Assembly (NCBI GenBank): GCA_028825265.1 | Contig: JAPKAM010000004.1 | Span: 333 to 64,332, forward strand | Direction of reading: 5' to 3' | DNA from: Planctomycetota bacterium | GTDB taxonomy: Bacteria > Planctomycetota > UBA8108 > UBA1146 | DNA: 64,000 bases | In this document: piece after piece, positions 16,889 through 33,300 of the stretch | Position numbering within the stretch: position 1 is the stretch's first letter | Layout of the letters: the number at the start of each line of letters is the position of its first letter | Notes under the pieces: model-generated | Database searches by the model: none | Told to the model about the DNA's origin: nothing | What the model saw: only the letters and a program-made list of their open reading frames with translations | Made by a program: the position numbers and the translations under genes

Positions 16889-16999
16889 GATGTTTCTCCT
16901 ACTCGATCCTAGTCGCTGATCAACGGCTAGTCAGCCTTGTGATCTCCCTCTTCCGGGTCTAGTCTTGCGGAGGATCAGTAGGCATCAGGAGGTATCTGG

Positions 17000-18472: not shown

Positions 18473-18514
18473 TCTGCACCCCCCTGTAAAATCCTCTTTA
18501 CATCTGGATTCTCC

Positions 18515-20659
18515 ATGCGACCATCTAGAAGTCCCTGGAATCCCATTCCAAGCCCAAAGATGGAGACTCAATTGGACGTGCCAGAACGAGCACGAGGTGA
18601 GAGGCAGTCGAACTCTTCGGCGAGCCCTACCCGACTGGTCATCCGTGATATGGCGGGGGAACGCTATGTCACGCTCGATGGCGATACCATCTCGATCGGT
18701 CGCTCTCGCGATAACGACATAGAGGTGGGAGACATCTCATCTTCTCGTCAGCATTGCCAGATGAAGAGGATTCAGGGGCGCTGGCACATCGAGGACTTAC
18801 GTAGTCGAAATGGAACTCTCGTCAACGGGATCCTCATCCGCCGTCAACCCTTGATGGGGGGAGATCTGATCGAGATCGGCAAGACCCAGATCTTTTTTGG
18901 CGAAATTCCTGAACTGCATCGGGAGAATGCTCCAGCGGGAGAGACCCTGATACTCAGCACCGAGTACTTTCTCGAGCCGATCGCAGAAGAGGTCACCACC
19001 GAAGATCCGATTCGATTCCAGAAGGAACGAGAAATCTTCCTCCGATTACTCGAGTTGACCAGGGATCTCGGAGCCATCCTCGTGACAGAAGAATTGTTCG
19101 AAGTTATTCTTCAGAATATCATCGAGATTTCCGGAGCCGAGCGGGGATTCCTGATCATCGAGGATGATCAGGAATTACGGGTGGCTTCTTCTCGAAACAT
19201 CGACCGTGATGTGGTTCGAAGAGCTCATTTGCAGGTGAGCCAGTCTCTCACTCGAAGAGTGATCGATTCAGGTGAGCCGGTTCTGACTGGCGATGCTCGA
19301 AGTGATCCTCGTTTTCATGATTCTGCATCGATCGCAAATCTGCGGCTGGAATCGGTTCTGTGCGTGCCCCTCCGATTGCGCGGCAAGATTCTGGGGGCTG
19401 CATATGTCGATAATCGATTTGAAAAGCACTCCTTCCACCAGGGGACTCTCCGTTTCGTTCAGTTTCTTGCGGACCAAGCAGCGATCTATATCGAAAATGC
19501 CCGATTGTTCGAGGAACTGCAGCGTAAGCAGGAAGCGATCCAAACCTCCAAGGATCAGGTCGAGGCGCTGAACCGGGAACTACAGGCGATGTTGATCGCT
19601 CGCGACGTGGAACCCGAGGATGTCCGGGAATTGCTCAAGCGTGGAGCGCGACCTGATCTGAAGCACTCCTTTGATCGAATCGTGACTCGCTCTCCGGTCA
19701 TGATCCGGGTCTTCGAGTTGCTCGATCGCATCATCGATACCGACATGCCGGTGTTGATTCTTGGAGAAAGTGGAACCGGGAAGGAACTGGTGGCTCAGGC
19801 GATCCATGTTGGATCGGATCGAAGAAGTGACGCCTTTGTTTCCCAGAACTGCGCGGCGATCCCTGAGAACTTGCTGGAGAGCGAATTCTTTGGTCACGTC
19901 AAGGGCGCCTTTACCGGTGCTCATCGTGACAAGAAGGGTCTTTTCGAATTGGCCGACGGAGGGACTCTGTTCCTCGATGAGATCGGAGATATGAGTACAG
20001 ATCTTCAGGCGAAGTTACTTCGGGTACTCGAAGACGGGGAAATTCGTCCAGTTGGGTCTCGAGATACGATTCGCGTGAAAGTGAGAATCATCTCCGCCAC
20101 CAATCAGAAACTGGAAGAGATGGTTCGCAACGGTAAATTCCGTGAAGATCTCTACTACCGATTGAATGTGCTGACGGTTCAGTTGCCTGCACTGCGGGAA
20201 CGCCGCGAGGATATCCCTCTGCTGGTAGACCATTTCATCGATGAGGTTTGTTCCCGTCATGATCGGGAGCGCCCCAAGATGGATCCGAGAACTTTGTATG
20301 CGCTTTACCACAGCCCTTGGCCTGGAAATGTTCGACAACTGGAAAATGAAATAGAGCGACTGGTGGCACTCTCCGAAGGTGTCATCGTGCCAGAAACGAT
20401 TTCTCCATCGGTGTTGTCGCATGGCCCTACGGCCGGTTCGGGAAATCGGGAGCCGATGCGTGGCACACTTCGGGAACTGGTCGCTGAAGCGACCGAGGGG
20501 CTGGAACGGCAGGTCATCAGTGCGACCCTCGAGGAGAACTCATGGAACAAAAGCCAGACCGCCCGACAATTGGGAGTCTCCAGGCCAACACTGGATCAGA
20601 AGATCGAGAAGTATCAACTGAAGCGCAAATCAGAGACGGATGGGGAGAATCTAGCATGA
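18515..20659 (+). CDS. Sigma-54-dependent transcriptional activator with N-terminal FHA domain and GAF domain
   Basis: FHA (ISIGRSRDNDIEVGD...SRQHCQM...NGTLVNG), GAF, AAA+ (GESGTGKELVAQAIH, GAFTGA, ESEFFGH) and Fis-type HTH (QTARQLGVSRPTLDQKIEKY). The real start may be the internal M at 18560 or 18650. Confidence 0.8.
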   Translation: MRPSRSPWNPIPSPKMETQLDVPERARGERQSNSSASPTRLVIRDMAGERYVTLDGDTISIGRSRDNDIEVGDISSSRQHCQMKRIQGRWHIEDLRSRNGTLVNGILIRRQPLMGGDLIEIGKTQIFFGEIPELHRENAPAGETLILSTEYFLEPIAEEVTTEDPIRFQKEREIFLRLLELTRDLGAILVTEELFEVILQNIIEISGAERGFLIIEDDQELRVASSRNIDRDVVRRAHLQVSQSLTRRVIDSGEPVLTGDARSDPRFHDSASIANLRLESVLCVPLRLRGKILGAAYVDNRFEKHSFHQGTLRFVQFLADQAAIYIENARLFEELQRKQEAIQTSKDQVEALNRELQAMLIARDVEPEDVRELLKRGARPDLKHSFDRIVTRSPVMIRVFELLDRIIDTDMPVLILGESGTGKELVAQAIHVGSDRRSDAFVSQNCAAIPENLLESEFFGHVKGAFTGAHRDKKGLFELADGGTLFLDEIGDMSTDLQAKLLRVLEDGEIRPVGSRDTIRVKVRIISATNQKLEEMVRNGKFREDLYYRLNVLTVQLPALRERREDIPLLVDHFIDEVCSRHDRERPKMDPRTLYALYHSPWPGNVRQLENEIERLVALSEGVIVPETISPSVLSHGPTAGSGNREPMRGTLRELVAEATEGLERQVISATLEENSWNKSQTARQLGVSRPTLDQKIEKYQLKRKSETDGENLA

Positions 20660-23217
20660 GTGGCAGGATTCGCGTGAAGGACCTCGGTCGCAAGACTATC
20701 GTCAACATTTCAGATCAACCGATCACTGTCGGCCGGGACCCCGATTCCCGCATCGTGATCGGCGATCGAGCGGCTTCTCGTAAACATGGAGTGTTTAGTT
20801 GGGAAGGGAGTGACTTTGTCTATCAAGATCTCTCCTCATCCAATGGAAGTGTCCTGGCGGGAAAGAAGATCGATAAGGTGTCGCTGTCTCATGGAGACTG
20901 CATCTACATCGGAGATGCGGAGTTCCAATTGGAACTGTTGGACGGGGCCCCTCTCGATGACGAGACCGATCGAACGCCGATCGATGGTGTTGTTTCCTCA
21001 CGAGGGAACGATGCACCTACTGGCCCTGGCCTAGTTTATCAACATGAAGGTACCGATCAGTGGGTCCAGGCGGTCGGAAGGATCGTTGTCGGTCGCTCCG
21101 AGGAAGCCGATGTGACCCTAAATGACGGTCGAGTGTCATCCAAGCACGCCGTCATGCTCGAACAAGATGGATGCTGGTACATGGCCGATCTTGGCTCCGG
21201 AAACGGCATTGTGGTGGGACAAACAAAGGTCAAGAAACTTGAACTCACCGATGGTGTTCAGTTTCGAATTGGTTCCACGGAGTTCAAGGCGAGAGGCTTC
21301 TTGAACCGGGCACAACCCTCCAGGGATGGCGGGACAGCCGCTTCGATCTCGACTCGGTCTGTCGCGAATCGGGCTGTCTCGAATCGATCTTCTGCGAATC
21401 GGCCTGTCGCGAATCCAGCGGCGGAGATGACGGTGGGGCGAAGTACCCGGGTCGATGTCGGTTCGGAGGGTTCCCAGGGTCTCTTTACCATCGCCTTCAT
21501 CTTGGTACTGGGGGTGGTGCTCTACTCCGGTTACGGCTGGCTTCAAGACCTCGCGAGTAATCCTGACCTGGTGGTCCCGGAGGGGGATCGACTCTCCGGT
21601 GCTGGTCATTTTGAACTGGTTCCCCCTGGGCCGCTCGATGATGGTCCGTGGCGCTGGATCAGTGGTGAGGGTTCACTCGTTGTCGAGCGAGGGGAAGCGG
21701 CTCCCCACGGCCAGCAATGGCTCTCTTGTCGCGGCTCCTCCGATCCACGAGGTGTCATGCGACTCGAATATGACACCGTTTTCGAGGTGCAACAGGGACA
21801 AGGGTTACGCCTTAGTGCACGGCTCCAGAATACAGGATTCGATCGAATCGGACTGTCCGTCCGCTGGATTGAATCACGCGATGAGGGCGATCGAATTGTC
21901 GATGAGCAATTCTCTTCCTTGAAATCATCTTCCAACTGGAGTGGTCATGCTGCCGAGTTTGCCCCTCCGGTGGCGGGCAAGGGAGGTTCTGCAAGAGTCT
22001 CCGTGGTTGCATTGGGTCAAGGCAGAGAAATCCAGGTGGATCAAATGGTGATTCGCACAGTCGAAGCGCAGCGAGATCAACTGATTCATATCACCGCAGG
22101 AGATGCCGAACAGAAGATGGATCTTGCCATCGACGCCTCGGGAGTCGGCAAGTTGGTGCGCGGGCGGCAGGAGCTGATTTCAGATTTGCGGATCGCGATC
22201 GGTCCTCCAAGGAGCATGCCCTGGGGCCAACTTTTACCGATTCGCCGTGAGCAAATCGTCAGCGGCGATGATGGTTCCATCCGGCTTGGCTTCGAACTCG
22301 ATGAACAAGGACAAGGAAAAGTAGCGATTCAGCAGTTTGCCCGTTCGATCGGCTGGAAGATTGCTGCCAGTTGGACTCCGCAACGACCCACTCCGATGAT
22401 CCTGGTGGGAAGGGTGCCGATCCGAAGGGGTTCTTCACCGGTGCAAGTTTTTGCCGGCAGTAAATCCGTCGCAGTGGCGGATCGTTGGACCGATCTTGAG
22501 CCCTGTTCCGGGACAGAGATCTCGATTGGAATCGGTAACGATCAGATGGTTGCGACCTTTCAGCAGCCGATGATGTTCTCAGTGATCCCCGGTCAGGACG
22601 GTCGAGGTGCACTGTTGGTGGCCGATGCTGGAATCGTCATCGCTGGAGGTTCTCTCGATGTTTCATTCTCCGCCAGTAGCGAGCGCGAGCAATCCCGGGT
22701 GCTGGAGGCTCTCGCCGAGGTGAACCGAACGCTGGACGCGAGATCTGAGGGAGAGGCGGCTCAACTGATCCGACTGGCCCGAGCCGATTTCCCTTGGAGA
22801 GTGGACTTGGCCCGCAAACTGGACCTGATCGAAGAACGCATCGAGGTCGAAGTCGACGCTGCGCTGGGCCAGATCGCTGCCGTACTCGAAGATTCGAGGA
22901 AGTATCCAGGATCCTCAACCAGCATGTATTTGGAGAGAATTTGTCGCGAGGCGGTTGGTAGATTTGTCGGACTAGATCCCGCCCAGGAGTCGCAGCAGAT
23001 CCTGGATCAGCGCAAGAGTGCCAGTCAAAACGCAAATGACCGGATGGCCGTGGGGAAAGTCGAACTACTGCTGGCTCGTGGGCGATCCGCTCTAGGGAAA
23101 CATCGTTTCGAGATCGCTCGCTTCTACTTCCGCATGCTACTGGATCAGTATCCAGAATCTCCCGGTGCGGCGATCGCGGCTCAGGAATTAAAACTCATCA
23201 CTGCGAGGGGGGACTGA
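20656..23217 (+). CDS. Membrane protein with two N-terminal FHA domains and a large periplasmic domain
   Basis: FHA1 (ITVGRDPDSRIVIGD...SRKHGVF...SSNGSVLAG) and FHA2 (IVVGRSEEADVTLND...SSKHAVM...GSGNGIVVG). One TM helix (LFTIAFILVLGVVLYSGYGWL), then ~570 periplasmic aa. ATGA overlap with the upstream activator; the ORF track starts it earlier, at 20542. Confidence 0.65.
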   Translation: MSGRIRVKDLGRKTIVNISDQPITVGRDPDSRIVIGDRAASRKHGVFSWEGSDFVYQDLSSSNGSVLAGKKIDKVSLSHGDCIYIGDAEFQLELLDGAPLDDETDRTPIDGVVSSRGNDAPTGPGLVYQHEGTDQWVQAVGRIVVGRSEEADVTLNDGRVSSKHAVMLEQDGCWYMADLGSGNGIVVGQTKVKKLELTDGVQFRIGSTEFKARGFLNRAQPSRDGGTAASISTRSVANRAVSNRSSANRPVANPAAEMTVGRSTRVDVGSEGSQGLFTIAFILVLGVVLYSGYGWLQDLASNPDLVVPEGDRLSGAGHFELVPPGPLDDGPWRWISGEGSLVVERGEAAPHGQQWLSCRGSSDPRGVMRLEYDTVFEVQQGQGLRLSARLQNTGFDRIGLSVRWIESRDEGDRIVDEQFSSLKSSSNWSGHAAEFAPPVAGKGGSARVSVVALGQGREIQVDQMVIRTVEAQRDQLIHITAGDAEQKMDLAIDASGVGKLVRGRQELISDLRIAIGPPRSMPWGQLLPIRREQIVSGDDGSIRLGFELDEQGQGKVAIQQFARSIGWKIAASWTPQRPTPMILVGRVPIRRGSSPVQVFAGSKSVAVADRWTDLEPCSGTEISIGIGNDQMVATFQQPMMFSVIPGQDGRGALLVADAGIVIAGGSLDVSFSASSEREQSRVLEALAEVNRTLDARSEGEAAQLIRLARADFPWRVDLARKLDLIEERIEVEVDAALGQIAAVLEDSRKYPGSSTSMYLERICREAVGRFVGLDPAQESQQILDQRKSASQNANDRMAVGKVELLLARGRSALGKHRFEIARFYFRMLLDQYPESPGAAIAAQELKLITARGD

Positions 23218-24836
23218 TGGCTTACAAGGGACAGGTCACTGTTCTCGAGTTGAAGTCCCACCGCTGGCGTGCAGTCCATGTGCGTGGAATCGGGCATACC
23301 GTTGAGGTGGTCTCGGTTAACGAGGTGGAATCCCCCGCAGATGAAGACATCGGGGCATGGGTCAAGGAACTGACGACCAGAAAATTTCCGACCGGAAACA
23401 TTGTACTTCTGCTCGATGGAGAGAGTTCATCACTTCGCTACCATAGCGTGCCTCCGGTACCTTCCTGGCGGCTCGACCTGATCCTTCATTACGAGATCGA
23501 GGAGATCGCAGAAAAGACTGGTGATGCCCTCTCCGGGGGGCACATCGAACTGCTGGTTCCGGAGAGCCTATCCGAGGACACCTTGTTGCTGCTTGGGGTC
23601 GGGAAAGACTCGGTGATCCAGCCCCTCATCGACCAAATCCGGGAGGGCCATGGACAAGTGAAGTTGGCCTTGCCTTCTGCGATCGGAACTTTCCACGGAC
23701 ATCTCGCCAGTCACGGACCTGAGAGCGAAGATCAGACGGTCTTGCTGTGCGATGTGCAGGAGACTGAAACACAGGTGCTCGTGGTTCGGGAAAACCGATT
23801 ACTTTTTGCTCGAAGTGTCGGATTTGGTCTTCAAGGAATGGTCGATCTGGTCACCGAACGAACATCGGTTTCTGAAGCGAAAGCACGTCAGATGATCGCC
23901 GCATTCGTTTCGGGAGATCTGATCGATGGAGAAGAAGCGATGGTCGGCTGTCACCGCGGCTGGACCAGTCAGTTGGGGCAAATGCTCACGTCTTCTCTCT
24001 CCTTCTGTAAAGCTCAGCTGAAGATTGACGATGTCATCGCAGATCGAGTACTACTTTCGGGTATCGGAGCAGAGCTCGTAAGTCGATGCGATCAGCTCCG
24101 TCGATTGATGGATAAAGATCTAGAGGTGGTCTCCTTCGCGGGAACCGCTGGATCGCAGTGGACTCTGAATATAGGGACTGCAGCAGCAGCCCTCGATTCC
24201 GACGATCGAATTGTCGATCTGCTGCCCACTGCCGAGCGCAAGCGCAGAACGTTTCGAGACCACACACGCTTTTTGTGGGCCGGTGTTGCTGCGTTGGTTT
24301 TGGCCGTCGGATTGCAGGCGATGGATGTGTCTGTTTCTGCCGCACGCGCTACCGGTGCATCCCAAACGATTCGTCAGTGGCGCGGCGATATTTCCAACTG
24401 GCGGTCGGCAGAAGAAGATGCTCGAAAAAGTAACGATGTGTTCCGGAAAAGGGAGACCAGGATCATCCAGGAGATCGAGACGGGGAAGTTTTACTCGAAG
24501 ATCCTCGACCGACTTCGGCAGGATCTTCCCTCCGAAATCTCACTGGAGCAGATCAGCCTTCGCAGGGTTGTCGGCGATTCAGAGATCGGTATCGAGATCG
24601 AACTGATCGGCCAGGCGGACAATTCTCGACGTAATGGCCTCGAAGCCATCGAGACGTTGCAGGGTAACCTCGAGGGTATTCCTGGTGTTGAACGGGTTCG
24701 TTCCACACCTGAAGACCAGAAATCAGGCGCCTATCCATTCAGTATCTTGGTTTCTCCGGATGAAAAGTTGCCGGAGAAGAGTAACCGGGGTCCTGGCAAC
24801 CGTCGTAGGAAGTCACCGTTCGGGGGGAGAGGATGA
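23217..24836 (+). CDS. GspL-like / PilM-PilN fusion-like inner-membrane assembly protein
   Basis: Cytoplasmic actin-like segment (LLCDVQETETQVLVV...FARSVGFG...RVLLSGIGAEL), single TM helix (FLWAGVAALVLAVGLQAM) and a periplasmic coiled-coil domain. TGATG overlap with the upstream gene. Confidence 0.4.
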   Translation: MAYKGQVTVLELKSHRWRAVHVRGIGHTVEVVSVNEVESPADEDIGAWVKELTTRKFPTGNIVLLLDGESSSLRYHSVPPVPSWRLDLILHYEIEEIAEKTGDALSGGHIELLVPESLSEDTLLLLGVGKDSVIQPLIDQIREGHGQVKLALPSAIGTFHGHLASHGPESEDQTVLLCDVQETETQVLVVRENRLLFARSVGFGLQGMVDLVTERTSVSEAKARQMIAAFVSGDLIDGEEAMVGCHRGWTSQLGQMLTSSLSFCKAQLKIDDVIADRVLLSGIGAELVSRCDQLRRLMDKDLEVVSFAGTAGSQWTLNIGTAAAALDSDDRIVDLLPTAERKRRTFRDHTRFLWAGVAALVLAVGLQAMDVSVSAARATGASQTIRQWRGDISNWRSAEEDARKSNDVFRKRETRIIQEIETGKFYSKILDRLRQDLPSEISLEQISLRRVVGDSEIGIEIELIGQADNSRRNGLEAIETLQGNLEGIPGVERVRSTPEDQKSGAYPFSILVSPDEKLPEKSNRGPGNRRRKSPFGGRG

Positions 24837-25639
24837 TCCAGGAAATCTGGCAAAAAAACCGCAAGGTTTTGATTCAGGTGCTTTCAGCACTGGCGATTTT
24901 TCTGGTCGCTACTAATGTCACTAGCAGTTATCGAGCCGACCATGAAAAAAACCTGATTCGACATGAAGAGGACGCCCAACTGGTCGCACAGGATCTCGAG
25001 GGGCTCGAAGGTGTGGTCGATGTGGAGAGAAAATCTCGGACCGCCCTTGAGGATCGGAATCTGGATCTCCTTAAGAAACTGGGGATCTCTTTTTCAGCAA
25101 TTCATCAACCATCGGTGGATGAGGCATCTGTCAGTACTGATTTCAAGAGAGCCAAGGACCTGGTCTGGAACAACTTCAGGGACCAGGCCAATCGAGCTGG
25201 AATGGTGACTCCCGCCGAGATTCCGAATTTTGATGAGCGTTCTGATCTGTCATTGCTGGAATGGGCCGATCGGTATCGACTGCTGGAAGTTCTCGATCGA
25301 TTCACCAGGGTCTGCCTTCAAACCGGGGTTGCGCGCCTTGATGATGTGATCCCTGCGAAACGGCTGCAGGAGGCATTAGAAGATCCTAACAAGGTGCTCG
25401 CTCGTTATCCGCTCCACGTCAAGATGCTCTGCAAGCCCGAGCAATTGGTGGAGATGCTGCTTCGTTTTCAGCGCGACGGCGGATTCCTGTCACTAGAGCC
25501 GACAAGGGTGACCCAGGAAAAGTCCGGCGGTGAGAAAATCGAAGTGGATTTACTAGTTGTTGGAATTGACATGGAAGACCCTCGAGTCGACAGCGGCTCG
25601 ACTCGTCGGGGATCCGACCGTTCGAGGAGGGGATTCTGA
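24833..25639 (+). CDS. Bitopic membrane protein, GspM/PilO-like by architecture
   Basis: N-terminal TM helix (VLIQVLSALAIFLVATNV) plus a periplasmic domain. ATGA-coupled within the operon. Confidence 0.35.
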   Translation: MIQEIWQKNRKVLIQVLSALAIFLVATNVTSSYRADHEKNLIRHEEDAQLVAQDLEGLEGVVDVERKSRTALEDRNLDLLKKLGISFSAIHQPSVDEASVSTDFKRAKDLVWNNFRDQANRAGMVTPAEIPNFDERSDLSLLEWADRYRLLEVLDRFTRVCLQTGVARLDDVIPAKRLQEALEDPNKVLARYPLHVKMLCKPEQLVEMLLRFQRDGGFLSLEPTRVTQEKSGGEKIEVDLLVVGIDMEDPRVDSGSTRRGSDRSRRGF

Positions 25640-26025
25640 TGCGCTGGAACATCGAAAAGGGATTCTGTGTTATCTGCCTCGGGTTTTTACTCCTGAGTGT
25701 TCTGGGGCTAGCTAAAACCTACATCCTGGAAGATCCACTGGCGGGGGTCGATCTCAGGGTCCCTGAATCCAGTGATGGGGGAACTGTCGGAGGGCTGGTG
25801 AGGCTGGAGTGGTATGAACCGGCTCCCATAGAAATGGCCAGAAATCCATTCTCCAGTGTCAGCGAATGGAAAACTGCTCCAACAGATTTGTTGGGCGTGC
25901 CGCCCCTCAGTCCCGTACTACGCAGGGTACCGCTGCCGGCACTGGTGTCTGGCGACCCCAGGACCCGCCTTCGTGCCGAACTGGCGACTCCCGTAGCGGT
26001 CGAAGATGAGAAGGAGTCTCAATGA
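25639..26025 (+). CDS. Small bitopic membrane protein (GspC/PilP-like position)
   Basis: TM helix (FCVICLGFLLLSVLGLA) and a Pro-rich periplasmic tail. Translationally coupled at both ends. Confidence 0.3.
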   Translation: MRWNIEKGFCVICLGFLLLSVLGLAKTYILEDPLAGVDLRVPESSDGGTVGGLVRLEWYEPAPIEMARNPFSSVSEWKTAPTDLLGVPPLSPVLRRVPLPALVSGDPRTRLRAELATPVAVEDEKESQ

Positions 26026-28352
26026 CGAAGTGGTTCAGTTGCCTGCTCTTCATCGCCTTTCTACTGTTCCCACGGGCAGTTCTTGAAGGTCAAACGGCCA
26101 TCGATCTAGAGATCCGTGCCTACGATGTCATCGAATTGAATAATGGAAATCAGTTCGAGGGCAGGATCATCGCAGAGTTATCGAATTTGATTCAATTTGA
26201 AACTGCGGCGGGAAAAGTCACCTTCCCTCTTTCAGATGTCCGTAACATCTTCTACAGAAATCCTCCCGAAAAGGTCTACCAGACTCGGCTGCAGGATGGA
26301 TTTGATGAGTCTTCAGCTGCCGAGCAATTTGAAATCGGCAGATGGTGCCTGGATCCAGCAGTCGGACTGCTGGAGCAAGCCGTGAATCACCTGGAGATGG
26401 CCGTCCAACTCGATCCGACATCGGCGGCTCCTTACCAGCTGTTGATCCCCATCTACCAGCAAGACGATGCTCGCCAATTCCAGTCCACTGATCATGAAAT
26501 GACTGCCGATGTGGCGATGACGCAGACACTTCTGAAGGGTGTTCGTGCCAACATCGAGATCGAAGGTCTCTTCGAACTCACGGTCACCCAACTGATCCAG
26601 ATCGGCGAATCAGAAGCGGCCGTGTTGCTGTTGATGCGCCAGAGTGAAGGTGACGTCACGATTCCTTCCGTCGCGGCGGCGCTGAAAAAATTGGTGGTAC
26701 TTCTCGATGCACTGGGTCGTAGTGAAGAGTCGAGACAGGCCGCCAGTCGACTTCGCAAAGGCGGTGGTGGAAGCGATGTCGAGGTCTTGCAGCGAGAAAT
26801 TCGATGGGCGGTCCTCGACTATGCCGCTGGATCGCTGGATTCACGCGATGCGATCGAACAGTTGTTCGATGATCTGATCGCCGCGGGTGGTGCGGATGGG
26901 CAGAGTTATCTCTATCGTGGTACGGCTCGGTTACTCGACGATCAACTAGTACTGGCGCAAGACGACTTCAAGAAGGCTTTTCGGGCCGGAAGTGTCGATG
27001 CCATTGCTGCCACCACTTTTGCCCTCTCCTTCGCCAGGATGGGCGATTTCGACAAAGCACTAGGACTACTGGGGCCCGCTTCCGAGGGGGACCAGGTCAA
27101 CGTGGATTGGCGACTCGTGGAAGCCTACGTACTGGAATCTCAGGGAGAATCCAGGGCTGCGGTAGATCTCTATCAGGAGGCGACCGAGCAGGCTGAGGCC
27201 ACCTGGCAATCACGCCTGTTAAGCATCGAAGCGAGGCGGAGGCTAGATCCGAACTGGGATCCGACTTCGGATGTTGAAAAGGTCATGCGACACGACGTGC
27301 TGTCCTCCGCTGCTTTTGCCGAATGCGCACTGGTGCTGGGAGACCATGCTCTTTCACGAGGAAAACAGGCGGAAGCCAGACGTTGGTTGGAATACGCCGT
27401 TGCCAGTGGGCTCGACGGTTCTGATGTGATGCTTCGCCTCGGTCTCGCACAACGCGGACCGGGTGGTGATCCGAAGAGAGCGCGAGATGCACTGACTCTG
27501 GTGACGATAGATCAGCCAAAGAACCCCGACGGTTGGAATGCTCTGGCGGAGTTCCTCCATTCCAATGGTGAACTCGAAGACGCTCGTTTAGCCCTGCGGA
27601 AGTCGCTGGACCTGTTCCCTGAAAAGATGCGAGATAACTGGGCGCCCGATGCGCCGGCTCCTTTGCGCTGGGCACTGCGCGCTCAGCGACGAATCAATCG
27701 GACCCTTTCAGAAGAGTACTGGTACGATGATTTTGATCGAGCAAATGACTCTTCACTACAGAATAACTGGCGTGAAGAAGAAGCCTTTGGTGTCTCCGTT
27801 TCTCTCAAGGATGGCATGGCGATCATCGAAGGAGTCCAGAAACATCAACCGGACCGCTTGACCTCGATGAAACGTGAAATCCTGACTTCTCGTCTGACAG
27901 GATTTCGGTCGACACTTCGGTTATTGGCTGCTGGCACTGGCACGCGGATTGCATTTCGTGTGGAAGACCAATCGGGTGGTGGGCTGATCTTCTTCCGAGA
28001 TCCCGATGGTGTCCTTGGTTTCGCCCTTCTCGGGGGGAAAGAGATCAAGATGGTTCGCAGCGACGATGCCGAACAGGGGGAGGACTTTGGTTTGATTGAA
28101 ACCATCTGGTCGCCGGACGATCGTGCTCACCAGTTGGAAATCATTTTCACGCGGGAAGGCAAGGAGGGCGCCGAGTTGTGGTTTGACGGCATCCTTGTGG
28201 CGCGGGAAATTCCATATCGACCGGCCAGGAAGGCTGGCTTGACGGCTGGTTTTTCCGGTCAGGCTCCTCTCGATGAAAAATATCATCTGGCCATCGAGGA
28301 GTTCGAGGTGTTTCGCCGAAAGGCGGTCTCAATCAGGGAGCAGGAGTACTAG
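26022..28352 (+). CDS. Secreted TPR-repeat protein with C-terminal beta-rich domain
   Basis: Signal peptide (WFSCLLFIAFLLFPRAVLEG), multiple TPR-like helical repeats and a ~200-aa non-TPR C-terminal domain. Coupled within the operon. Confidence 0.5.
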   Translation: MTKWFSCLLFIAFLLFPRAVLEGQTAIDLEIRAYDVIELNNGNQFEGRIIAELSNLIQFETAAGKVTFPLSDVRNIFYRNPPEKVYQTRLQDGFDESSAAEQFEIGRWCLDPAVGLLEQAVNHLEMAVQLDPTSAAPYQLLIPIYQQDDARQFQSTDHEMTADVAMTQTLLKGVRANIEIEGLFELTVTQLIQIGESEAAVLLLMRQSEGDVTIPSVAAALKKLVVLLDALGRSEESRQAASRLRKGGGGSDVEVLQREIRWAVLDYAAGSLDSRDAIEQLFDDLIAAGGADGQSYLYRGTARLLDDQLVLAQDDFKKAFRAGSVDAIAATTFALSFARMGDFDKALGLLGPASEGDQVNVDWRLVEAYVLESQGESRAAVDLYQEATEQAEATWQSRLLSIEARRRLDPNWDPTSDVEKVMRHDVLSSAAFAECALVLGDHALSRGKQAEARRWLEYAVASGLDGSDVMLRLGLAQRGPGGDPKRARDALTLVTIDQPKNPDGWNALAEFLHSNGELEDARLALRKSLDLFPEKMRDNWAPDAPAPLRWALRAQRRINRTLSEEYWYDDFDRANDSSLQNNWREEEAFGVSVSLKDGMAIIEGVQKHQPDRLTSMKREILTSRLTGFRSTLRLLAAGTGTRIAFRVEDQSGGGLIFFRDPDGVLGFALLGGKEIKMVRSDDAEQGEDFGLIETIWSPDDRAHQLEIIFTREGKEGAELWFDGILVAREIPYRPARKAGLTAGFSGQAPLDEKYHLAIEEFEVFRRKAVSIREQEY

Positions 28353-28994
28353 ATGAACCCTTCACCACGAGCCGGATTCACCCTGGTCGAACTACTGGTG
28401 GTGATTGCCATCATCGGCGTTTTGGCTGGACTGGGTTCGAAGATGCTGAGCTTTGCCACCAAGAGCAGTGCCATCGGCCTGGCCGAACAGGAGATGCAAC
28501 GATTGGTGCTGGGCGTGGAAACCTATCAACTCGATTTCGGCGATTTCCCACCCAGTTCGATGGAGCAAGAGTACGAGATCTCCGGCAATGGTCTAGACGA
28601 GGGAAACGAGAGTTTGGTGGCCCATCTCGCCAGTCGCTCGAGAGGCCGGAGTTACTTCGAGTTCAAGGAGGAGTTTCTCGAGAATCTCGATGATGATCGT
28701 ATCGGTGATGCAGATCTCTATCAGCAGATGCGCTGGGTTTTCGGCGATGAACAACTGAGAGAATACGTAGATCCCTGGGGAGTTCCTTACGTCTACATTC
28801 ACAATAGAGATTACGGCATCGATTACTCTGTGACTCAAGAATCAGGCCCGATCAAGATCCACGCAGGGAATTCTCGTAAAACTGCGACCTATCATGAACC
28901 ACTTCGTTTCCAGATATGGTCAGCGGGGCCGGATGGTATTCACCAGATCGATGTCGATGATCCGGATGCCTCGGATGACGTGGCGCCATGGTGA
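28353..28994 (+). CDS. gspG: Major pseudopilin, GspG-like (type II secretion / type IV pilin-like)
   Basis: Class III signal RAG|FTLVELLVVIAIIGVLAGL with Glu+5, GspG 'DPWGVPYVY' motif, and C-terminal SAGPDG (cf. GspG GADG). 213 aa against a canonical ~145. Confidence 0.7.
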   Translation: MNPSPRAGFTLVELLVVIAIIGVLAGLGSKMLSFATKSSAIGLAEQEMQRLVLGVETYQLDFGDFPPSSMEQEYEISGNGLDEGNESLVAHLASRSRGRSYFEFKEEFLENLDDDRIGDADLYQQMRWVFGDEQLREYVDPWGVPYVYIHNRDYGIDYSVTQESGPIKIHAGNSRKTATYHEPLRFQIWSAGPDGIHQIDVDDPDASDDVAPW

Positions 28995-30376
28995 GAAGAA
29001 GTTTCGATTCGAATCACGGCGTGACCTTGATCGAGCTCCTGGTGGTGCTTTCGATCCTGTCGGTCATGCTCGGAATGTCGATGTCCGTTTTTCGGTCCTT
29101 CGGCGAGGCCCAGACGCTGGAGATCGCTTCCAGCAGCATCTCTACGACGGTCAGAGCTGCGCGGAACTGGTCGATCTCATCCGGGATGCAGAGCCGGATT
29201 CTGGTCGATCCAGAGCATCGTAAAGTGACCGCCTTCGGATTTCAATTGGCGGGTGCCTGGGGTTTCGAGGATTTTTACGGCCTTCCTGAAAAGCAGTTAT
29301 TGCCGCCGGGATCGGTGACCCTCGGTGCCTATCGCCAGCCAGCAGAACTGGTCGGCCAGGTGGAACCCTGTGCCGGATCGATCGGTCGAGGGGCGATGTT
29401 CGTCAACGATGGTGCCGCATTTCGTGCTCGTCGCCTGGCCAGTTACGAGGGTCGTAATGGGGTTTCCATCGAAGCGTGGGTTCATTTCTGGAAGCCGCCC
29501 TGGCGTCCAGAAGATGGAATTGAGCCGGATGGGGGCTTTTCCGATCCGCGGCGGGAGATGCGCATGGCCGTGCTTGGCATTCCCGATTCATTCGAGATGG
29601 GAATCCTCGGCGATGGCGCCGTTTACATGCAGATCGGTGATCCGCAGAGGGCCATCGATGGGCAATACATCCGCGCCCAGACGGAGGGATCTGCGGTCCT
29701 TGCGGATCGATGGGTACACCTGAGAGCCACTTTTGATTGTACCGAACTGATTCTCGAGGTGGACGGCGTCGAGCAGGCTTGGATTCCTGAGGGCTTCGAA
29801 ATGATCGAACAGTGGCCGCCATTACCCACTGCAATCCCTCACAGCGATTCCGATCTGTGGATTAGTCATCCCAATCGATTTTTCATGGGAGCCATCGATC
29901 AGGTGGTCCTGAGGGTGGCAACGACACCAGAGATCGTCGAATTGCCCATCGATATCGAACTGTTGGGTCCCACGACGCTGATTTATCTCGACAGCCGAGG
30001 GGCTCTCGATCCGTTGCTGCACAATTTCCCTGTGGTGATTCACGTGGCGGAGGTCGGAGATTTTTCTGAAATTGAAGCCGCAGATGGAACTGCAGTTGCA
30101 AAAGAAGGATTCAGGGATCGCATCGAACGAGAGCGACAGGAACAGGCGGCTAGAGACGGTGAGATCGTCCAGGCATTTGGCGATCCCATCTCGGATCTGA
30201 TGAAGCATCTGGAAGGCTGGGAAACCGATCCAGATGCTCTCATCGAAGAGGAAGAAGAGAAGAACCCGGTGCCATTGACTCCAGGAATGCACTACGGAAT
30301 TGGCGATGTGGATGGAACATCAGTGCTTCGTCTTCATAACATCGTGATTGATATGACGGGAGCTATTCGTGGTTAA
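28988..30376 (+). CDS. Large pseudopilin-like protein (GspH-like position)
   Basis: Prepilin N-terminus NHG|VTLIELLVVLSIL with Glu+5. 462 aa. Confidence 0.5.
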   Translation: MVRRSFDSNHGVTLIELLVVLSILSVMLGMSMSVFRSFGEAQTLEIASSSISTTVRAARNWSISSGMQSRILVDPEHRKVTAFGFQLAGAWGFEDFYGLPEKQLLPPGSVTLGAYRQPAELVGQVEPCAGSIGRGAMFVNDGAAFRARRLASYEGRNGVSIEAWVHFWKPPWRPEDGIEPDGGFSDPRREMRMAVLGIPDSFEMGILGDGAVYMQIGDPQRAIDGQYIRAQTEGSAVLADRWVHLRATFDCTELILEVDGVEQAWIPEGFEMIEQWPPLPTAIPHSDSDLWISHPNRFFMGAIDQVVLRVATTPEIVELPIDIELLGPTTLIYLDSRGALDPLLHNFPVVIHVAEVGDFSEIEAADGTAVAKEGFRDRIERERQEQAARDGEIVQAFGDPISDLMKHLEGWETDPDALIEEEEEKNPVPLTPGMHYGIGDVDGTSVLRLHNIVIDMTGAIRG

Positions 30377-33300
30377 GCCAGAGAGAAATCTTGAACGAGG
30401 AATGGCCTTGTTGATGGTCATCCTGGTGCTCTCCGCGCTGGCAGCGATCGGTACTCCGTTTGTGATTTCGATGAAACTTCAAGAAAGAGGTGCCGCTCGG
30501 GCAATCGCACAGCAGCACGCACAACTCGCTGCGCAAAGTGCCAGAGGACATGCTCTTAGCCGATTGTTCGATACTCATCATAGTCGAGAACGAGATCGCT
30601 GGCGCCCCGGAGTGGAGGCTCCTGACTTGGTCGATGGACTGGACGAATTGAAAGTCGACTTTCCTGGTGTGATCACAACTGTACCTGTGGTCGGTACACC
30701 TCCGGAGGATTTTCAAATTCGAGGTAATTCTCAGGTGATCCTCGATGCTCGCGTGACTGACGAGCAGGGCAAGATCAACATCAACTCTGCGATGCCTAAT
30801 CTCATGGGCAACTTGTTGGCCGGGAGTCATCTGTCCGAAGCGATCAGCTATGAAACGGATCTGGGAGAGTTGCCACTCGACGACACCTCTTCTTTTCCCG
30901 CGGATGATGATCCGGAGACGATTGATGGTGTCGTCGTGATCCTCAATCCGATCTTCTTCACTGTCGAGGCGATTTCATACACTGGAAAAACTGAAACAGC
31001 GTTGACCGGGATCTTCAGGGGACAATACCTGTCGGGGACATGGGAGCACCAGAAAGGTTGGCCAGTCTTCGACCTTCGTGGGTTGAAGGTCTTCTTGCAT
31101 CGGCTCGCCAATCTCTCTGACGGTGAAATCGCGACCTTCCGTACTCCGATTGGAATCCGTCAGATTGCCGATTGGTCGGTGGTTCCCTATTTCCTCAAGA
31201 CCCTGGCAGTGGTGGGGCTCAATTTCAAGAACATGGCGGAATGGGGTCTGACCACAGAGATGCTGGTGCGTGCGGGGATCGATCCATCCTTGCTCCAGGG
31301 GGATACAGAACAAGTGGATGAAGCGGAATATCGTAAAGCACGAAAGATGTTTCTCGATAATAACATCCCCAAGGATGTGGTCGATCTGGTCGAGTCGATT
31401 CGTGGAAAAGCTGCGGTGATCGAAGCGGCTGAGGTGGTCGCGGGCTTTGGTCTGACCAAGGCCAGGGGGAATGCATTCAAGGGTGTCTATCTGACCTTCA
31501 TCGCACCGGAGCTGAAGAAGATCAAGAAGAGGGGCAAGAGTTATTTCCCCAGCGCCATCCTCGCTTACCAGGAAATTTTTGATCTCCCCGGAATGGAAAC
31601 CTTTTCAGCTTTTGAGTTTGAGCAAATCCGCGACCTGATCACGACCACCTCGACCCAGCCGAGGGCATGGTCGCAGGAACAGATGGTCGAGGGAGAGATC
31701 ACCGATAGTGCGCTACTCGGAGTCCCGCAGATGCGTCTGCCACGGTATGACTTCTTCAATCCTGGAACTGTGGTGAGAATCCGCAGCATCGATGATCCCT
31801 CGAAGGTTGAATATGGACTCGCTGCGGGGGCTTTCCCGACTCCTCGGGGAGGATTCCGGGGATTGGGAGCTGGCTCCATCTTTCAGGGCGGTGTGATTCT
31901 CAAGGAACCCTTGAAATATCAGTGGGGCGAGCGCGAGGCGATGGTTAGTGCCGCACTTCGGCATCCGGTCAACATCAATACCGCCCCTCGTAGGGTCCTC
32001 GAAGCGGTCTTGACCGGGCTCTCCACCGATCGGTTCGAGGCACGATTCAACGGAGTGACCGTCGAAGAAGCGCGTGGATTGACCGACCTCCTGATGGAAG
32101 CGATGCCGATTTCTGGTTTCGCCGCTTTGCGGGAGGTGGTGGAAGCCGCTCAGATGAGTGGCGTCCTCGATGGCGGTGATTCCGAAGCGATTCTCATTAA
32201 CGCACTGAACCCAAATCAGCCACGACTCTCCATCTCCACCACGGGATTTTGTTACGCCACTTCTGAGATCTACACCGTTGAATCGACCGGAGTGGCCAGG
32301 AGCCCGGTGGGTACTCCTCAAGCGACGGTTCGCCTTCGTGAGGTGATCGAGGTTGCACCTCCGGATCCGCTTTCGCTAAGGCTGGAAACGCAGGAGGACT
32401 GGTCTTCCATCTTTCTCACACGTAATTCGAGCGGTGGGATGTTCTCTCGATTCAACACGACTTTCGTCCCCGGTCGGGCGTCGAACCTGGTGATCAGTGG
32501 TCCGATCCCTCTCAACCGTCGCAAGTTCACCGGGCCTTCTCTCGATGAAGGAACTCTTCGTGGAGCGACCATCTCGTATGATCGAGATTCAGGGAACTAC
32601 GGTTTCGGCTCGGTCGGCTTGCTGGATGTCGAGCACTTTAGCGAAACCATCGAGGGGTATGAACTGGAAGACGGTTCCTGGAAGCGATCGATTCTCCTCC
32701 AGCAAGAAACCGAACCGACTCGGGGCCGAGGACGCAGGGGGGCGGCGCCTGATCCCCAAGTTTTGGATCAAAATTCGACTGAAGACGCCCTTTCGACCAT
32801 CCCTGCGATGATTGATTTCTGGTACCGCCCGCGCTGGGGCTCGCGAAGTGGAAACCGAATTATCTTCGATACCGTGGGCCCGACCCTGGATCGATATCGT
32901 GATCGTGTGCGATTGTTCTTCTCCGGGGATACACAGGAACTGGTGCTGCAGGTCTTTGATGAGACCGGATCTGCAGTGGCGTGGGATACCAATGTTCTAC
33001 CTGCGGCAGAGGTTCGGCACTCGGTCACGACCATCAACTTTGCAGATGACACCTGGTATCACATCTCTGCGGGATGGAGATCGACGAGGCCTGGAGATCT
33101 GGTGCTGATGATCGATCGTCGGCCGGTCGGTCGTCAGTCCTGGTTGTCACGCCTCAATGGTGCGCTTTCATTCTCGGGCAATCGTGTTTCCATCGTCGAT
33201 GGTGACATGGCGACCCGGTTCCCCCCGATGGGCACCTTGCTGGTGGGTTCTGAAGCGATCGATTACTCGGGTCGGGAAGGGGCTGCCTTCATCGTCAGGT

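What the first reader, a model, noticed from the sequence alone, without database searches (positions are those of the whole stretch)
18515..23217. FHA-GAF-AAA+-HTH sigma54 activator translationally coupled (ATGA) to a dual-FHA bitopic membrane protein
Enhancer-binding proteins whose receiver is replaced by an FHA domain are uncommon. Here one is followed by a protein with two tandem FHA domains, a TM helix and a ~570-aa periplasmic domain. This implies a Ser/Thr-phosphorylation relay: an unseen Hanks kinase, read by FHA, leading to sigma54 output. The two proteins could be alternative readers of the same phospho-signal, one transcriptional and one at the membrane apparatus.
Basis: partly seen in the sequence, partly recalled or inferred. 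Interest (0 to 1): 0.65.

Follow-up and report, generated by a model that had tools for sequence, protein, structure and literature searches.

The report
FHA-gated regulator pair heading a planctomycete pseudopilus operon
Two neighbouring genes of an uncultured marine planctomycete, a sigma-54 transcription activator and a membrane protein that both carry intact phospho-threonine-reading (FHA) domains, form the conserved regulatory head of a ten-gene pilus/type-II-secretion-like operon; this is a new variant of a known theme, not a new kind of system.

Summary
The window has an FHA-GAF-AAA+(GAFTGA)-HTH_8 sigma-54 activator. Its stop overlaps (ATGA) the start of an 853-aa protein with two FHA domains, one TM helix and a roughly 550-aa periplasmic part.

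Corrections:
- The activator probably starts at TTG 18572 (695 aa), not ATG 18515.
- ATGA-type overlaps link all ten genes from 18572 to 37174, so the coupling is not special to this pair.

The operon also encodes a PilM-PilN fusion, two small proteins, a TPR protein, GspG/GspH-like pseudopilins, a 1907-aa GspK-like pseudopilin and a fourth pseudopilin.

The phospho-Thr-binding residues (Arg, Ser, His, Asn) are conserved in all three FHA domains: Arg, Ser and His are invariant and Asn nearly so, in relatives as low as about 20% identical.

In distant Planctomycetota with unrelated flanks the order activator, dual-FHA gene, PilMN, pseudopilins recurs. Where there is a gap upstream of the dual-FHA gene, it holds a sigma-54 -24/-12 site (4 of 4 loci). 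A palindrome, TGTWAA-N6-TTTACA, lies upstream of the activator gene in four lineages and is a candidate activator-binding site.

No Hanks kinase or PP2C is linked, so the phospho-relay is inferred. The closest analogues are the T6SS Fha/PpkA pathway, the Myxococcus Kil and GltG proteins, and Myxococcus FHA-EBPs. I rate it a new variant of a known kind, of moderate interest.

The parts
18477..18503 (+). Invariant non-coding element CACCCCCCTGTAAAATCCTCTTTACAT. It contains the perfect palindrome TGTAAA-N6-TTTACA (18485-18502). It is a candidate activator-binding site (operator/UAS), or alternatively an extended -10 promoter.
   Evidence: It is identical in 8 aligned species while the flanks diverge. 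It occurs once, at the same position, in 16 clade loci, and is the only copy in the window. Versions with at most 1 mismatch lie upstream of the activator gene in L007, L063 and L064, and upstream of the dual-FHA operon in L066. Its presence tracks the HTH recognition-helix type.
18572..20659 (+). Sigma-54 enhancer-binding protein, FHA-GAF-AAA+-HTH_8 (695 aa from TTG 18572; the longest ORF starts at ATG 18515). Domains: FHA about 18689-18880, GAF about 19088-19495, AAA+ about 19679-20179, HTH_8 about 20501-20614.
   Evidence: Pfam; NCBIfam NifA/NorR/NtrC-type matches, all below the equivalog cut-offs; GAFTGA and Walker motifs; start-codon argument; FHA residues conserved; GAF nearest to the PDE5 GAF and FHA nearest to GarA/Rv1747.
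20656..23217 (+). Dual-FHA bitopic inner-membrane protein (853 aa). Layout: FHA1 residues 1-95 (20656-20940), FHA2 125-213 (21028-21294), disordered Ser/Thr/Arg-rich linker 214-272, TM helix 273-301 (21472-21558), two jelly-roll beta-sandwiches 332-470 and 477-672 (21649-22671), helical TPR-like domain 676-850 (22681-23205).
   Evidence: Pfam; hydropathy; AlphaFold models; Foldseek hits to CBM22/CBM16/CBM61/MAM; weak CpoB-like C-terminus; small family, 29 representatives among 1.84 billion; 10 of 10 distant members carry two FHA domains.
23217..24836 (+). PilM-PilN fusion (GspL-like architecture), 539 aa.
   Evidence: The family profile matches M. xanthus PilM 3jc8_Ma (2.7e-22, positions 2-317) and PilN 3jc8_Na (0.0045, positions 353-477). 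Pfam PilM_2 is found in 5 of 6 orthologues. Weak Amuc_1101 and PilM NCBIfam hits.
24833..25639 (+). 268-aa protein with an N-terminal hydrophobic segment. By position it is a PilO/GspM candidate. No family match.
   Evidence: Conserved position in all related loci; no Pfam or NCBIfam hit.
25639..26025 (+). 128-aa protein with an N-terminal hydrophobic segment. By position it is a PilP candidate. No family match.
   Evidence: Conserved in the clade and in L007 (164 aa); absent from L006 and L008; no family hit.
26022..28352 (+). 776-aa protein with an N-terminal hydrophobic, signal-peptide-like segment (judged by eye) and TPR repeats.
   Evidence: Pfam TPR_16 and others; weak PilW/PrsT NCBIfam hits; conserved position.
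28353..28994 (+). GspG-like major pseudopilin (213 aa).
   Evidence: N_methyl 1.6e-08 and T2SSG; TIGR01710 8.3e-11, below cut-off.
28988..30376 (+). GspH-like pseudopilin with a Laminin_G_3 domain (462 aa).
30369..36092 (+). Giant (1907 aa) GspK-like minor pseudopilin, a candidate filament-tip protein.
   Evidence: NCBIfam T2SS_GspK 2.4e-10 on residues 9-141; N-terminal hydrophobic pseudopilin-like segment; 1668-1969-aa counterparts in relatives.
36092..37174 (+). Fourth pseudopilin-like protein. The prepilin motif QG|MTLIEILV follows ATG 36092.
   Evidence: N_methyl 1.4e-05; translation.

Best explanation
The two genes are the regulatory head of a Planctomycetota-specific type-IV-filament (pseudopilus, T2SS/T4P-like) operon.

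Shown:
- The activator is a complete sigma-54 enhancer-binding protein whose input is an FHA-GAF module.
- The dual-FHA protein is a bitopic membrane protein. It is always encoded immediately upstream of a PilM-PilN fusion and a pseudopilin set.
- All three FHA domains retain the phospho-Thr-binding residues.
- In distant relatives the dual-FHA-led operon has its own sigma-54-type promoter.

Inferred:
- An unlinked Hanks-type Ser/Thr kinase phosphorylates one or more targets. Candidates are the Ser/Thr-rich linkers of the dual-FHA protein itself, by analogy with Rv1747, or the cytoplasmic PilM domain.
- The activator's FHA, together with a GAF ligand, releases AAA+ oligomerisation. The activator binds the palindrome TGTWAA-N6-TTTACA and drives sigma-54 transcription of pseudopilus genes.
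- The dual-FHA protein uses pThr binding to nucleate or gate assembly of the inner-membrane platform. Its periplasmic CBM-like and TPR-like domains contact the cell wall or outer components.
- In the window's clade the activator gene has been merged into the operon (ATGA) and no sigma-54 site precedes the dual-FHA gene. Here the palindrome upstream of the activator most likely acts as an autoregulatory operator, and the activator's sigma-54 targets lie elsewhere in the genome.
For: - Domain content and motifs.
- Conserved pThr residues. Nearest solved FHA domains are GarA/OdhI, Rv1747 and FhaA.
- Synteny (activator, dual-FHA, PilMN, ~275 aa, TPR, pseudopilins, giant protein) in the clade and in distant genomes with different flanks: L006, L007, L008, L064.
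- In L066 the dual-FHA gene stays with PilMN without an adjacent activator.
- Sigma-54-type sites in the gap upstream of the dual-FHA gene: L006 TGGTACGGTCCTTGCT, L008 TGGAATAGCAGTTGCG, L064 CGGCACAATGATTGCT, L066 TGGTATGATATTTGCT. Each has p 0.004-0.025 against random windows of its own locus.
- Palindrome upstream of the activator in four lineages, and about 105 nt upstream of the L066 sigma-54 site. It co-varies with the HTH type SRPTLDxKIEKY.
- PilM-PilN identity of the next gene. GspK/GspG/GspH-like pseudopilins.
- Sigma-54 regulons, including pseudopilin COG2165, have been predicted for Planctomycetia (PMC12316311).
Against: - No kinase, phosphatase, rpoN, GspE/PilB ATPase, platform protein or secretin lies in the 64-kb window. 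A secretin is seen only 7-10 kb upstream in L006 and L008.
- No credible sigma-54 promoter exists anywhere in the window's operon. The one exact consensus, at 27938, is in coding sequence and decays in relatives.
- The palindrome could equally be an extended -10 promoter (TGnTAAGAT or TG-TAAAAT).
- FHA domains can also work without phosphate; YscD-type domains do.
- The periplasmic fold match is generic (jelly-roll/CBM, TM about 0.6 per domain), and one stretch of the model is low-confidence.
- All genomes are MAGs, and nothing here is experimental.
Confidence: 0.6

Rival explanations
1. Partner switch or sequestration. The dual-FHA membrane protein and the activator bind each other directly: one protein's FHA binds a pThr on the other. 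The membrane protein holds the activator inactive until the machine or envelope state changes, as PspA does for PspF or FlgM for sigma-28. In this reading the dual-FHA protein is primarily a regulator, not a structural part.
For: The two genes are adjacent in 5 of 6 lineages and translationally coupled in the window clade, which would give fixed stoichiometry. Both proteins carry functional-looking FHA domains and Ser/Thr-rich disordered segments.
Against: The dual-FHA gene is more tightly tied to PilMN (6 of 6 lineages) than to the activator. L066 has no adjacent activator, and L063 and L065 have activators without a dual-FHA gene. No conserved Thr was found in either protein's disordered parts across the whole family. 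No interaction prediction could be run.
Confidence: 0.15
2. Phospho-independent scaffold. The FHA domains act as plain protein-protein modules, like the YscD/PrgH cytoplasmic domains of T3SS or the FHA of GltG docking on GltI and AglR. No kinase is involved.
For: Pfam's Yop-YscD_cpl model matches all the FHA domains. No kinase or phosphatase is genetically linked in any locus. GltG has the same 2xFHA-TM-periplasmic layout and is modelled to bind partners without phosphate (PMC11761067).
Against: The pThr-contacting Arg/Ser/His/Asn residues are conserved down to about 20% identity in all three domains. The closest solved relatives are true pThr readers. From my own knowledge, YscD-type FHA domains have typically lost these residues.
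Confidence: 0.15
3. The gene neighbourhood is incidental. The activator controls unrelated genes, and the dual-FHA protein belongs to cell-wall or division control like mycobacterial FhaA/FhaB, given the PBP4-type DD-carboxypeptidase gene just upstream.
For: The best NCBIfam hit of the dual-FHA protein is FhaB/FipA (5.7e-30, below cut-off). The S13 peptidase gene is immediately upstream in the clade and in L146. The C-terminus is weakly CpoB-like.
Against: The S13 gene is absent from L006, L007, L008, L064 and L066, whereas the PilMN/pseudopilin genes always follow. The FhaB match covers only the FHA domains. Sigma-54 sites precede the dual-FHA-led operon.
Confidence: 0.05

Closest known systems
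T6SS threonine-phosphorylation pathway (PpkA/PppA with Fha1 or TagH; in Agrobacterium, Fha binds phospho-TssL)
   Same: An FHA protein encoded inside the gene cluster of an envelope-spanning machine gates assembly by reading pThr made by a Hanks kinase. The TagH NCBIfam model gives a domain-level hit (5e-16).
   Different: There are no T6SS genes here, and the kinase and phosphatase are not in the cluster. The FHA protein is a dual-FHA bitopic protein with a large periplasmic domain. The score is below the TagH cut-off (59.5 against 120).
Myxococcus xanthus Kil Tad-like apparatus (PMC8460266)
   Same: A type-IV-filament system whose gene clusters are rich in FHA-domain proteins, proposed to signal assembly.
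   Different: Kil is Tad-type (CpaF/KilF ATPase with its own FHA, Flp pilin). This cluster has a PilM-PilN fusion and GspG/H/K-like pseudopilins. No sequence relationship exists beyond the FHA domains, and the phylum differs.
GltG of the Myxococcus Agl-Glt gliding machinery (PMC11761067)
   Same: The same layout: an N-terminal FHA, a second FHA next to the TM helix, one TM helix and a long periplasmic part linking to outer components. NCBIfam gliding_GltG hits the FHA region (1.9e-12).
   Different: The score is far below cut-off (46.6 against 650). GltG ends in a TonB-C-like domain, whereas this protein has two CBM-like sandwiches and a helical TPR-like domain. The partner machine is different.
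Myxococcus FHA-containing enhancer-binding proteins (Jelsbak, Givskov & Kaiser 2005 PNAS 102:3010, as cited in PMC12288465; paper not held)
   Same: Sigma-54 activators whose receiver domain is replaced by an FHA domain, tying Ser/Thr kinase signalling to sigma-54 transcription.
   Different: This protein has an FHA-GAF tandem input. It sits at the head of a pseudopilus operon in Planctomycetota. No experimental data exist for it.
PilS/PilR-type sigma-54 control of type IV pilin genes (own knowledge)
   Same: A sigma-54 activator encoded next to pilus genes, activating a -24/-12 promoter for filament components.
   Different: The input is FHA-GAF instead of a His-Asp receiver. The regulated operon starts with assembly-platform genes, not only the pilin.
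Rv1747 of M. tuberculosis (tandem FHA domains joined by a phospho-acceptor linker; own knowledge for the mechanism)
   Same: Two pThr-binding FHA domains precede a membrane domain, with a disordered Ser/Thr-containing linker. FHA2 of the window protein matches Rv1747 FHA (5e-07).
   Different: Rv1747 is an ABC exporter. No kinase sites are known for the window protein.
T3SS inner-ring protein YscD/PrgH/CdsD
   Same: Cytoplasmic FHA-fold domain(s), one TM helix and a periplasmic domain. Pfam Yop-YscD_cpl matches (3.5e-24).
   Different: The periplasmic part is not made of ring-building motifs. Foldseek finds CBM-type jelly rolls. No T3SS genes are present, and the pThr residues are retained here.

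Membership tests
Bacterial enhancer-binding protein (sigma-54 activator) | AAA+ Sigma54_activat domain with Walker A/B | tested here: met
   PF00158 3e-72, full length 1-167/168; GESGTGKE and LFLDEIG in the translation.
Bacterial enhancer-binding protein (sigma-54 activator) | GAFTGA sigma-54 contact loop | tested here: met
   ...GHVKGAFTGAHRDKKG...; conserved in relatives.
Bacterial enhancer-binding protein (sigma-54 activator) | C-terminal Fis-type HTH and a cognate upstream activating sequence | tested here: inconclusive
   HTH_8 4.4e-13. The candidate site TGTWAA-N6-TTTACA co-varies with the HTH type, but binding was not tested.
Bacterial enhancer-binding protein (sigma-54 activator) | A sigma-54 (-24/-12) target promoter and rpoN in the genome | tested here: inconclusive
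   Significant sites upstream of the dual-FHA operon in 4 distant loci, and none in the window's own operon. rpoN could not be searched in the genome. Sigma-54 is reported for Planctomycetota (PMC12316311).
Phospho-Thr-binding FHA domain | Conserved Gly-Arg (beta3-beta4), Ser-x-x-His (beta4-beta5) and Asn-Gly (beta6-beta7) | tested here: met
   Dual-FHA protein: R27/S41/H44/N63 and R147/S161/H164/N183, invariant or at least 90% in 16 sequences down to 19% identity. Activator: R44/S58/H61/N80 in 12 sequences.
Phospho-Thr-binding FHA domain | A cognate Hanks kinase and a pThr ligand | tested here: not met
   No kinase appears by Pfam on 47 ORFs, by motif scan or by tblastn with a PknB probe recalled from memory, in the window or in any family locus. 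Unlinked kinases elsewhere in the genome cannot be excluded.
T3SS YscD/PrgH inner-ring family | Periplasmic ring-building motifs and a T3SS gene context | tested here: not met
   Periplasmic model: jelly-roll/CBM-like plus helical domain. No T3SS genes in the window.
GltG (NF033760) / TagH (TIGR03354) / FhaB-FipA (NF049868) | Whole-protein score above the curated cut-off | tested here: not met
   46.6 against 650, 59.5 against 120, and 104.4 against 125. The matches cover the FHA domains only.
Type IV filament (T4P/T2SS) assembly cluster | PilM/PilN (GspL-like) platform component | tested here: met
   Profile against PDB: PilM 2.7e-22, PilN 0.0045. PilM_2 in 5 of 6 orthologues.
Type IV filament (T4P/T2SS) assembly cluster | Prepilin-type (N_methyl) pilins or pseudopilins | tested here: met
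   Three N_methyl proteins and a GspK-like giant.
Type IV filament (T4P/T2SS) assembly cluster | GspE/PilB ATPase, GspF/PilC platform, prepilin peptidase, secretin | tested here: not met
   None in the 64-kb window. A secretin gene lies 7-10 kb upstream in L006 and L008 only. The rest are presumably encoded elsewhere.

The most novel reading that the evidence does not exclude
The dual-FHA membrane protein and the FHA-GAF activator form a direct, phospho-Thr-dependent checkpoint. The membrane protein reports the assembly or envelope state of the pseudopilus machine, through its CBM-like periplasmic domains. It captures or releases the activator at the membrane, so that sigma-54 transcription of filament genes is coupled to machine status. 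That would be a Ser/Thr-phosphorylation analogue of the PspA-PspF or FlgM checkpoints, so far undescribed for type IV filament systems.
Probability: 0.12. Interest if true: 0.7.

Novelty: new variant of a known kind. Interest (0 to 1): 0.45.

Why it matters
Planctomycetota carry very many Ser/Thr kinases and unusual envelope structures, yet almost nothing is known about how their pili or secretion-type filaments are controlled.

This locus gives a compact, conserved and testable module:
- an FHA-GAF sigma-54 activator with a predicted DNA site;
- a sigma-54 promoter in front of the machine genes in several lineages;
- a machine-resident dual-FHA protein.

If confirmed, it would extend the 'FHA reads a kinase signal to gate an envelope nanomachine' principle, known from T6SS and suspected for the Myxococcus Kil system. 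It would reach a T2SS/T4P-like system in another phylum, and link that gate to sigma-54 transcription in one operon.

Tried and rejected
1. The exact sigma-54 consensus TGGCAC-N5-TTGC at 27938-27952, 415 nt before the pseudopilin gene. It lies in coding sequence (Gly-Thr-x-Ile-Ala), is not exact in any of five relatives, and decays at the same position in L001 and L004. Rejected as a promoter.
2. GG-N10-GC upstream of the S13 peptidase gene. It is not conserved. The conserved pattern there is sigma-70-like: TTG(T/A)GA, 17 nt, TA(G/C)NCT.
3. A sigma-54 site between the palindrome and the activator start, or at the 3' end of the activator gene. None has the right spacing or conservation.
4. Reading GGA-N8-TTGGAC at 18562-18577 as a -24/-12 element. 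It is the Shine-Dalgarno plus the TTG start.
5. Anti-phage defence: PADLOC gives only the generic AAA+ similarity.
6. A known RNA motif in the leader: no Rfam match.
7. Kinase search: nothing in the window or the family loci.
8. A profile search with distant members returned no new family members. The genome scan with the distant alignment failed for lack of a conserved stretch. The metagenome scan keyed on an FHA motif gave only one new true locus, L066.
10. Two further activator contigs (L146, L147) end inside the gene and say nothing about the downstream neighbour.
11. The Jelsbak 2005 paper is not held.
Full report
**Observation**

The + strand between 18.5 and 37.2 kb carries a run of co-directional ORFs.

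- ORF 18515..20659 has FHA (1.8e-16), GAF (1e-16), Sigma54_activat (3e-72), AAA_lid_14 and HTH_8 (4.4e-13) domains. The translation shows GESGTGKE, LFLDEIG and GAFTGA.
- Its TGA (20657-20659) overlaps ATG 20656.
- The 853-aa product from 20656, which matches the start in the public annotation (P0001, 'MAG Planctomycetota'), has two FHA domains (6.3e-29) and one hydrophobic helix.
- About 550 residues follow the helix. Arg residues precede it and acidic residues follow it, which fits an N-in/C-out topology.

**Two corrections**

- In an alignment of eight species, 1-2-nt indels destroy the reading frame between 18515 and 18572. A TTG/GTG codon preceded by GGAG/AGGA is conserved at 18572, and two gene callers chose it in relatives. 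The activator is most likely 695 aa (18572..20659).
- Every junction from the activator to the last pseudopilin gene is an overlap or abutment: 20656/20659, 23217, 24833/24836, 25639, 26022/26025, 28352/28353, 28988/28994, 30369/30376 and 36092. ATGA coupling is a property of the whole ten-gene operon, not of this pair.

**What the neighbours are**

| Coordinates | Size | Assignment | Evidence |
|---|---|---|---|
| 23217..24836 | 539 aa | PilM-PilN fusion | Six-member family profile hits M. xanthus PilM (2.7e-22) and PilN (0.0045); five of six orthologues hit Pfam PilM_2 |
| 24833..25639 | 268 aa | No family match | |
| 25639..26025 | 128 aa | No family match | |
| 26022..28352 | 776 aa | TPR protein | |
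| 28353..28994 | 213 aa | GspG-like pseudopilin | |
| 28988..30376 | 462 aa | GspH-like pseudopilin with a LamG-type domain | |
| 30369..36092 | 1907 aa | N-terminus is GspK-like (2.4e-10) | |
| 36092..37174 | about 360 aa | Fourth prepilin-type protein | |

No ATPase, platform protein, secretin, kinase or phosphatase lies in the window. PADLOC and Rfam add nothing.

**Are the FHA domains real pThr readers?**

- In the dual-FHA family, G26 R27 S41 H44 G64 and G146 R147 S161 H164 S181 N183 G184 are invariant, and N63 is at least 90% conserved. This holds across 16 sequences that fall to 19% identity.
- In twelve FHA-GAF activators, G43 R44 S58 H61 G81 T82 are invariant and N80 nearly so (695-aa numbering).
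- The nearest solved sequences are GarA/OdhI, Rv1747 and FhaA, all established pThr readers (my own knowledge). The GAF is nearest to the PDE5 GAF.

The refutation criterion is not met.

**Is the pairing functional?**

The dual-FHA family is small:

- 18 hits among 5.8 billion clusters;
- 29 representatives among 1.84 billion for the periplasmic part;
- about 13 GTDB species, nearly all labelled Planctomycetota;
- all ten distant members tested have two FHA domains.

Close relatives share whole-region synteny, including housekeeping genes, so they are uninformative.

Activators only about 35% identical in their N-terminal half are informative, because they sit in genomes with unrelated flanks. 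In L006, L007, L008 and L064 they are again followed by a dual-FHA gene of 800-865 aa. In the three loci that extend far enough (L006, L007 and L008; the L064 contig ends just after the dual-FHA gene), PilM_2, a ~275-aa protein, a large protein (TPR-annotated in L006 and L008), pseudopilins and, in L006 and L007, a 1668-1969-aa protein follow.

L066 has the dual-FHA/PilMN/pseudopilin operon without an adjacent activator. L063 and L065 have FHA-GAF activators alone.

The dual-FHA gene is therefore bound to the machine genes in every lineage sampled. The activator is a frequent, not obligatory, neighbour. The FHA-GAF module itself is widespread with other outputs: SpoIIE phosphatase, GGDEF, adenylate cyclase, HD-GYP, or stand-alone.

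**Regulatory DNA**

Four loci have a non-coding gap upstream of the dual-FHA gene. In each, a sigma-54-type -24/-12 element lies in that gap. In L006 and L008 it is the top-scoring site of the scanned cluster region; in L064 and L066 one site elsewhere in the locus scores higher.

| Locus | Position | Sequence |
|---|---|---|
| L006 | 12017 | TGGTACGGTCCTTGCT |
| L008 | 12013 | TGGAATAGCAGTTGCG |
| L064 | 12080 | CGGCACAATGATTGCT |
| L066 | 5942 | TGGTATGATATTTGCT |

Against random windows of the same locus, each has p = 0.004-0.025.

In the window's clade there is no gap and no credible site. The only exact consensus in 64 kb (27938) is coding and decays in relatives.

Instead, the 99-nt leader before the activator gene holds an invariant 27-nt element with the perfect palindrome TGTAAA-N6-TTTACA (18485-18502). 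It is present once, at the same place, in all 16 clade loci. The same palindrome, with at most one mismatch, occurs:

- immediately upstream of the activator gene in L007, L063 and L064;
- about 105 nt upstream of the sigma-54 site of L066.

It is absent from L006, L008 and L065. Its presence matches the HTH recognition helix: SRPTL(D/Y)xK(I/L)(E/K)(K/R)Y in loci with the palindrome, against SRLGLRKK or HPNYLHRL in those without.

I read it as the activator's binding site, autoregulatory upstream of its own gene and a UAS in L066. An extended -10 promoter (TGnTAAGAT) is an unexcluded alternative. A conserved sigma-70-like promoter lies upstream of the S13 peptidase gene.

**Structure of the dual-FHA protein**

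AlphaFold gives:

- two confident FHA domains (residues 1-95 and 125-213);
- a disordered Ser/Thr/Arg-rich linker;
- a TM helix (273-301);
- in the periplasm-only model (mean pLDDT 73), two jelly-roll sandwiches (332-470 and 477-672, with one low-confidence stretch) and a confident helical domain (676-850).

Foldseek against the PDB finds tandem CBM22 (2e-06), CBM16, CBM61 and MAM domains, with per-domain TM of 0.56-0.67. It finds no T3SS ring-building or GspC HR domains. The extreme C-terminus is weakly CpoB/YbgF-like.

**Mechanism proposed**

Shown: a complete sigma-54 activator with an FHA-GAF input; a machine-linked dual-FHA bitopic protein; intact pThr pockets; sigma-54 promoters in front of the machine operon in distant lineages.

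Inferred:

- An unlinked Hanks kinase supplies pThr.
- The activator integrates pThr and a GAF ligand to switch on filament genes.
- The dual-FHA protein uses pThr binding to nucleate or gate the PilMN platform. This could be on its own linkers, as in Rv1747, or on the PilM domain. Its periplasmic domains contact the wall or outer components.
- In the window clade the activator has been merged into the operon and probably autoregulates it through the palindrome. Its sigma-54 targets are then elsewhere.

Rivals are a direct activator/dual-FHA partner switch, phospho-independent scaffolding, and incidental linkage to cell-wall control.

**Comparison with known systems**

The closest analogues are:

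- the T6SS PpkA/Fha pathway;
- the FHA-rich Kil Tad-like system (PMC8460266);
- GltG, which has the same 2xFHA-TM-periplasm layout but a TonB-C-like end (PMC11761067);
- Myxococcus FHA-EBPs (Jelsbak 2005, cited in PMC12288465);
- PilR-type sigma-54 control of pilins.

All curated family models for GltG, TagH and FhaB score below their cut-offs. Sigma-54 regulons, including pseudopilin COG2165, have been predicted in Planctomycetia (PMC12316311).

**Verdict**

This is a real, conserved module and a new variant of a known kind. The phospho-relay reading is plausible and passes its own falsification test, but the kinase, the ligands and the activator's target in this clade remain unknown. Interest 0.45.

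Noticed in passing
window 18477-18503 (palindrome 18485-18502); also L007 9947, L063 9963, L064 9890, L066 5835: An invariant 27-nt leader element holds the perfect palindrome TGTAAA-N6-TTTACA. It is conserved upstream of FHA-GAF activator genes in four divergent lineages and upstream of a sigma-54 site in L066. Its presence correlates with the HTH recognition-helix sequence.
   Followed up: partly
L006 12017, L008 12013, L064 12080, L066 5942: Sigma-54-type -24/-12 elements lie in the gap upstream of the dual-FHA gene in all four distant loci that have such a gap. The window's clade has lost the gap and has no such site.
   Followed up: yes
window 30369-36092: A 1907-aa protein has a GspK-like minor-pseudopilin N-terminus and no other family match. 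Counterparts of 1668-1969 aa occur in relatives. It may be a giant filament-tip protein.
   Followed up: partly
window 16927-16957 (intergenic, upstream of the S13 peptidase gene at 17000): A conserved sigma-70-like promoter, TTG(T/A)GA, 17 nt, TA(G/C)NCT, keeps a constant spacer length but a variable spacer sequence across seven species.
   Followed up: partly
window 18515-18571: The 5' end of the longest activator ORF is probably not coding. Frame-breaking indels occur among relatives, and a conserved block (A/G)TGCGA(C/A)CATC at 18515-18525 has no known role.
   Followed up: partly
window 27938-27952: The only exact TGGCAC-N5-TTGC in the 64-kb window lies inside the TPR gene, 415 nt before the pseudopilin gene. 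It is partly kept in L001 and lost in L004, so it is probably a coding coincidence.
   Followed up: yes
L064 5361-5376: A perfect sigma-54 consensus, TGGCACGTGCTTTGCT, sits in an 880-nt gap with no annotated downstream gene on that strand.
   Followed up: no
window 20956-20985 (dual-FHA residues ~101-110): The inter-FHA linker has a semi-conserved acidic Thr-Pro motif, D-[DE]-[TV]-T-x-x-P-[IV], within the clade. It is a candidate phospho-acceptor but is not conserved in distant members.
   Followed up: no
window 15662-16888 (- strand): A 408-aa ORF, divergent from the S13 peptidase gene, is conserved in the clade and has no Pfam or NCBIfam match.
   Followed up: no
L013 (QNYK01000100.1): A contig carrying a full-length family member (57% identity) is labelled 'Bacillota bacterium' MAG. 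All other members are Planctomycetota, so this is probably a binning or labelling error.
   Followed up: no
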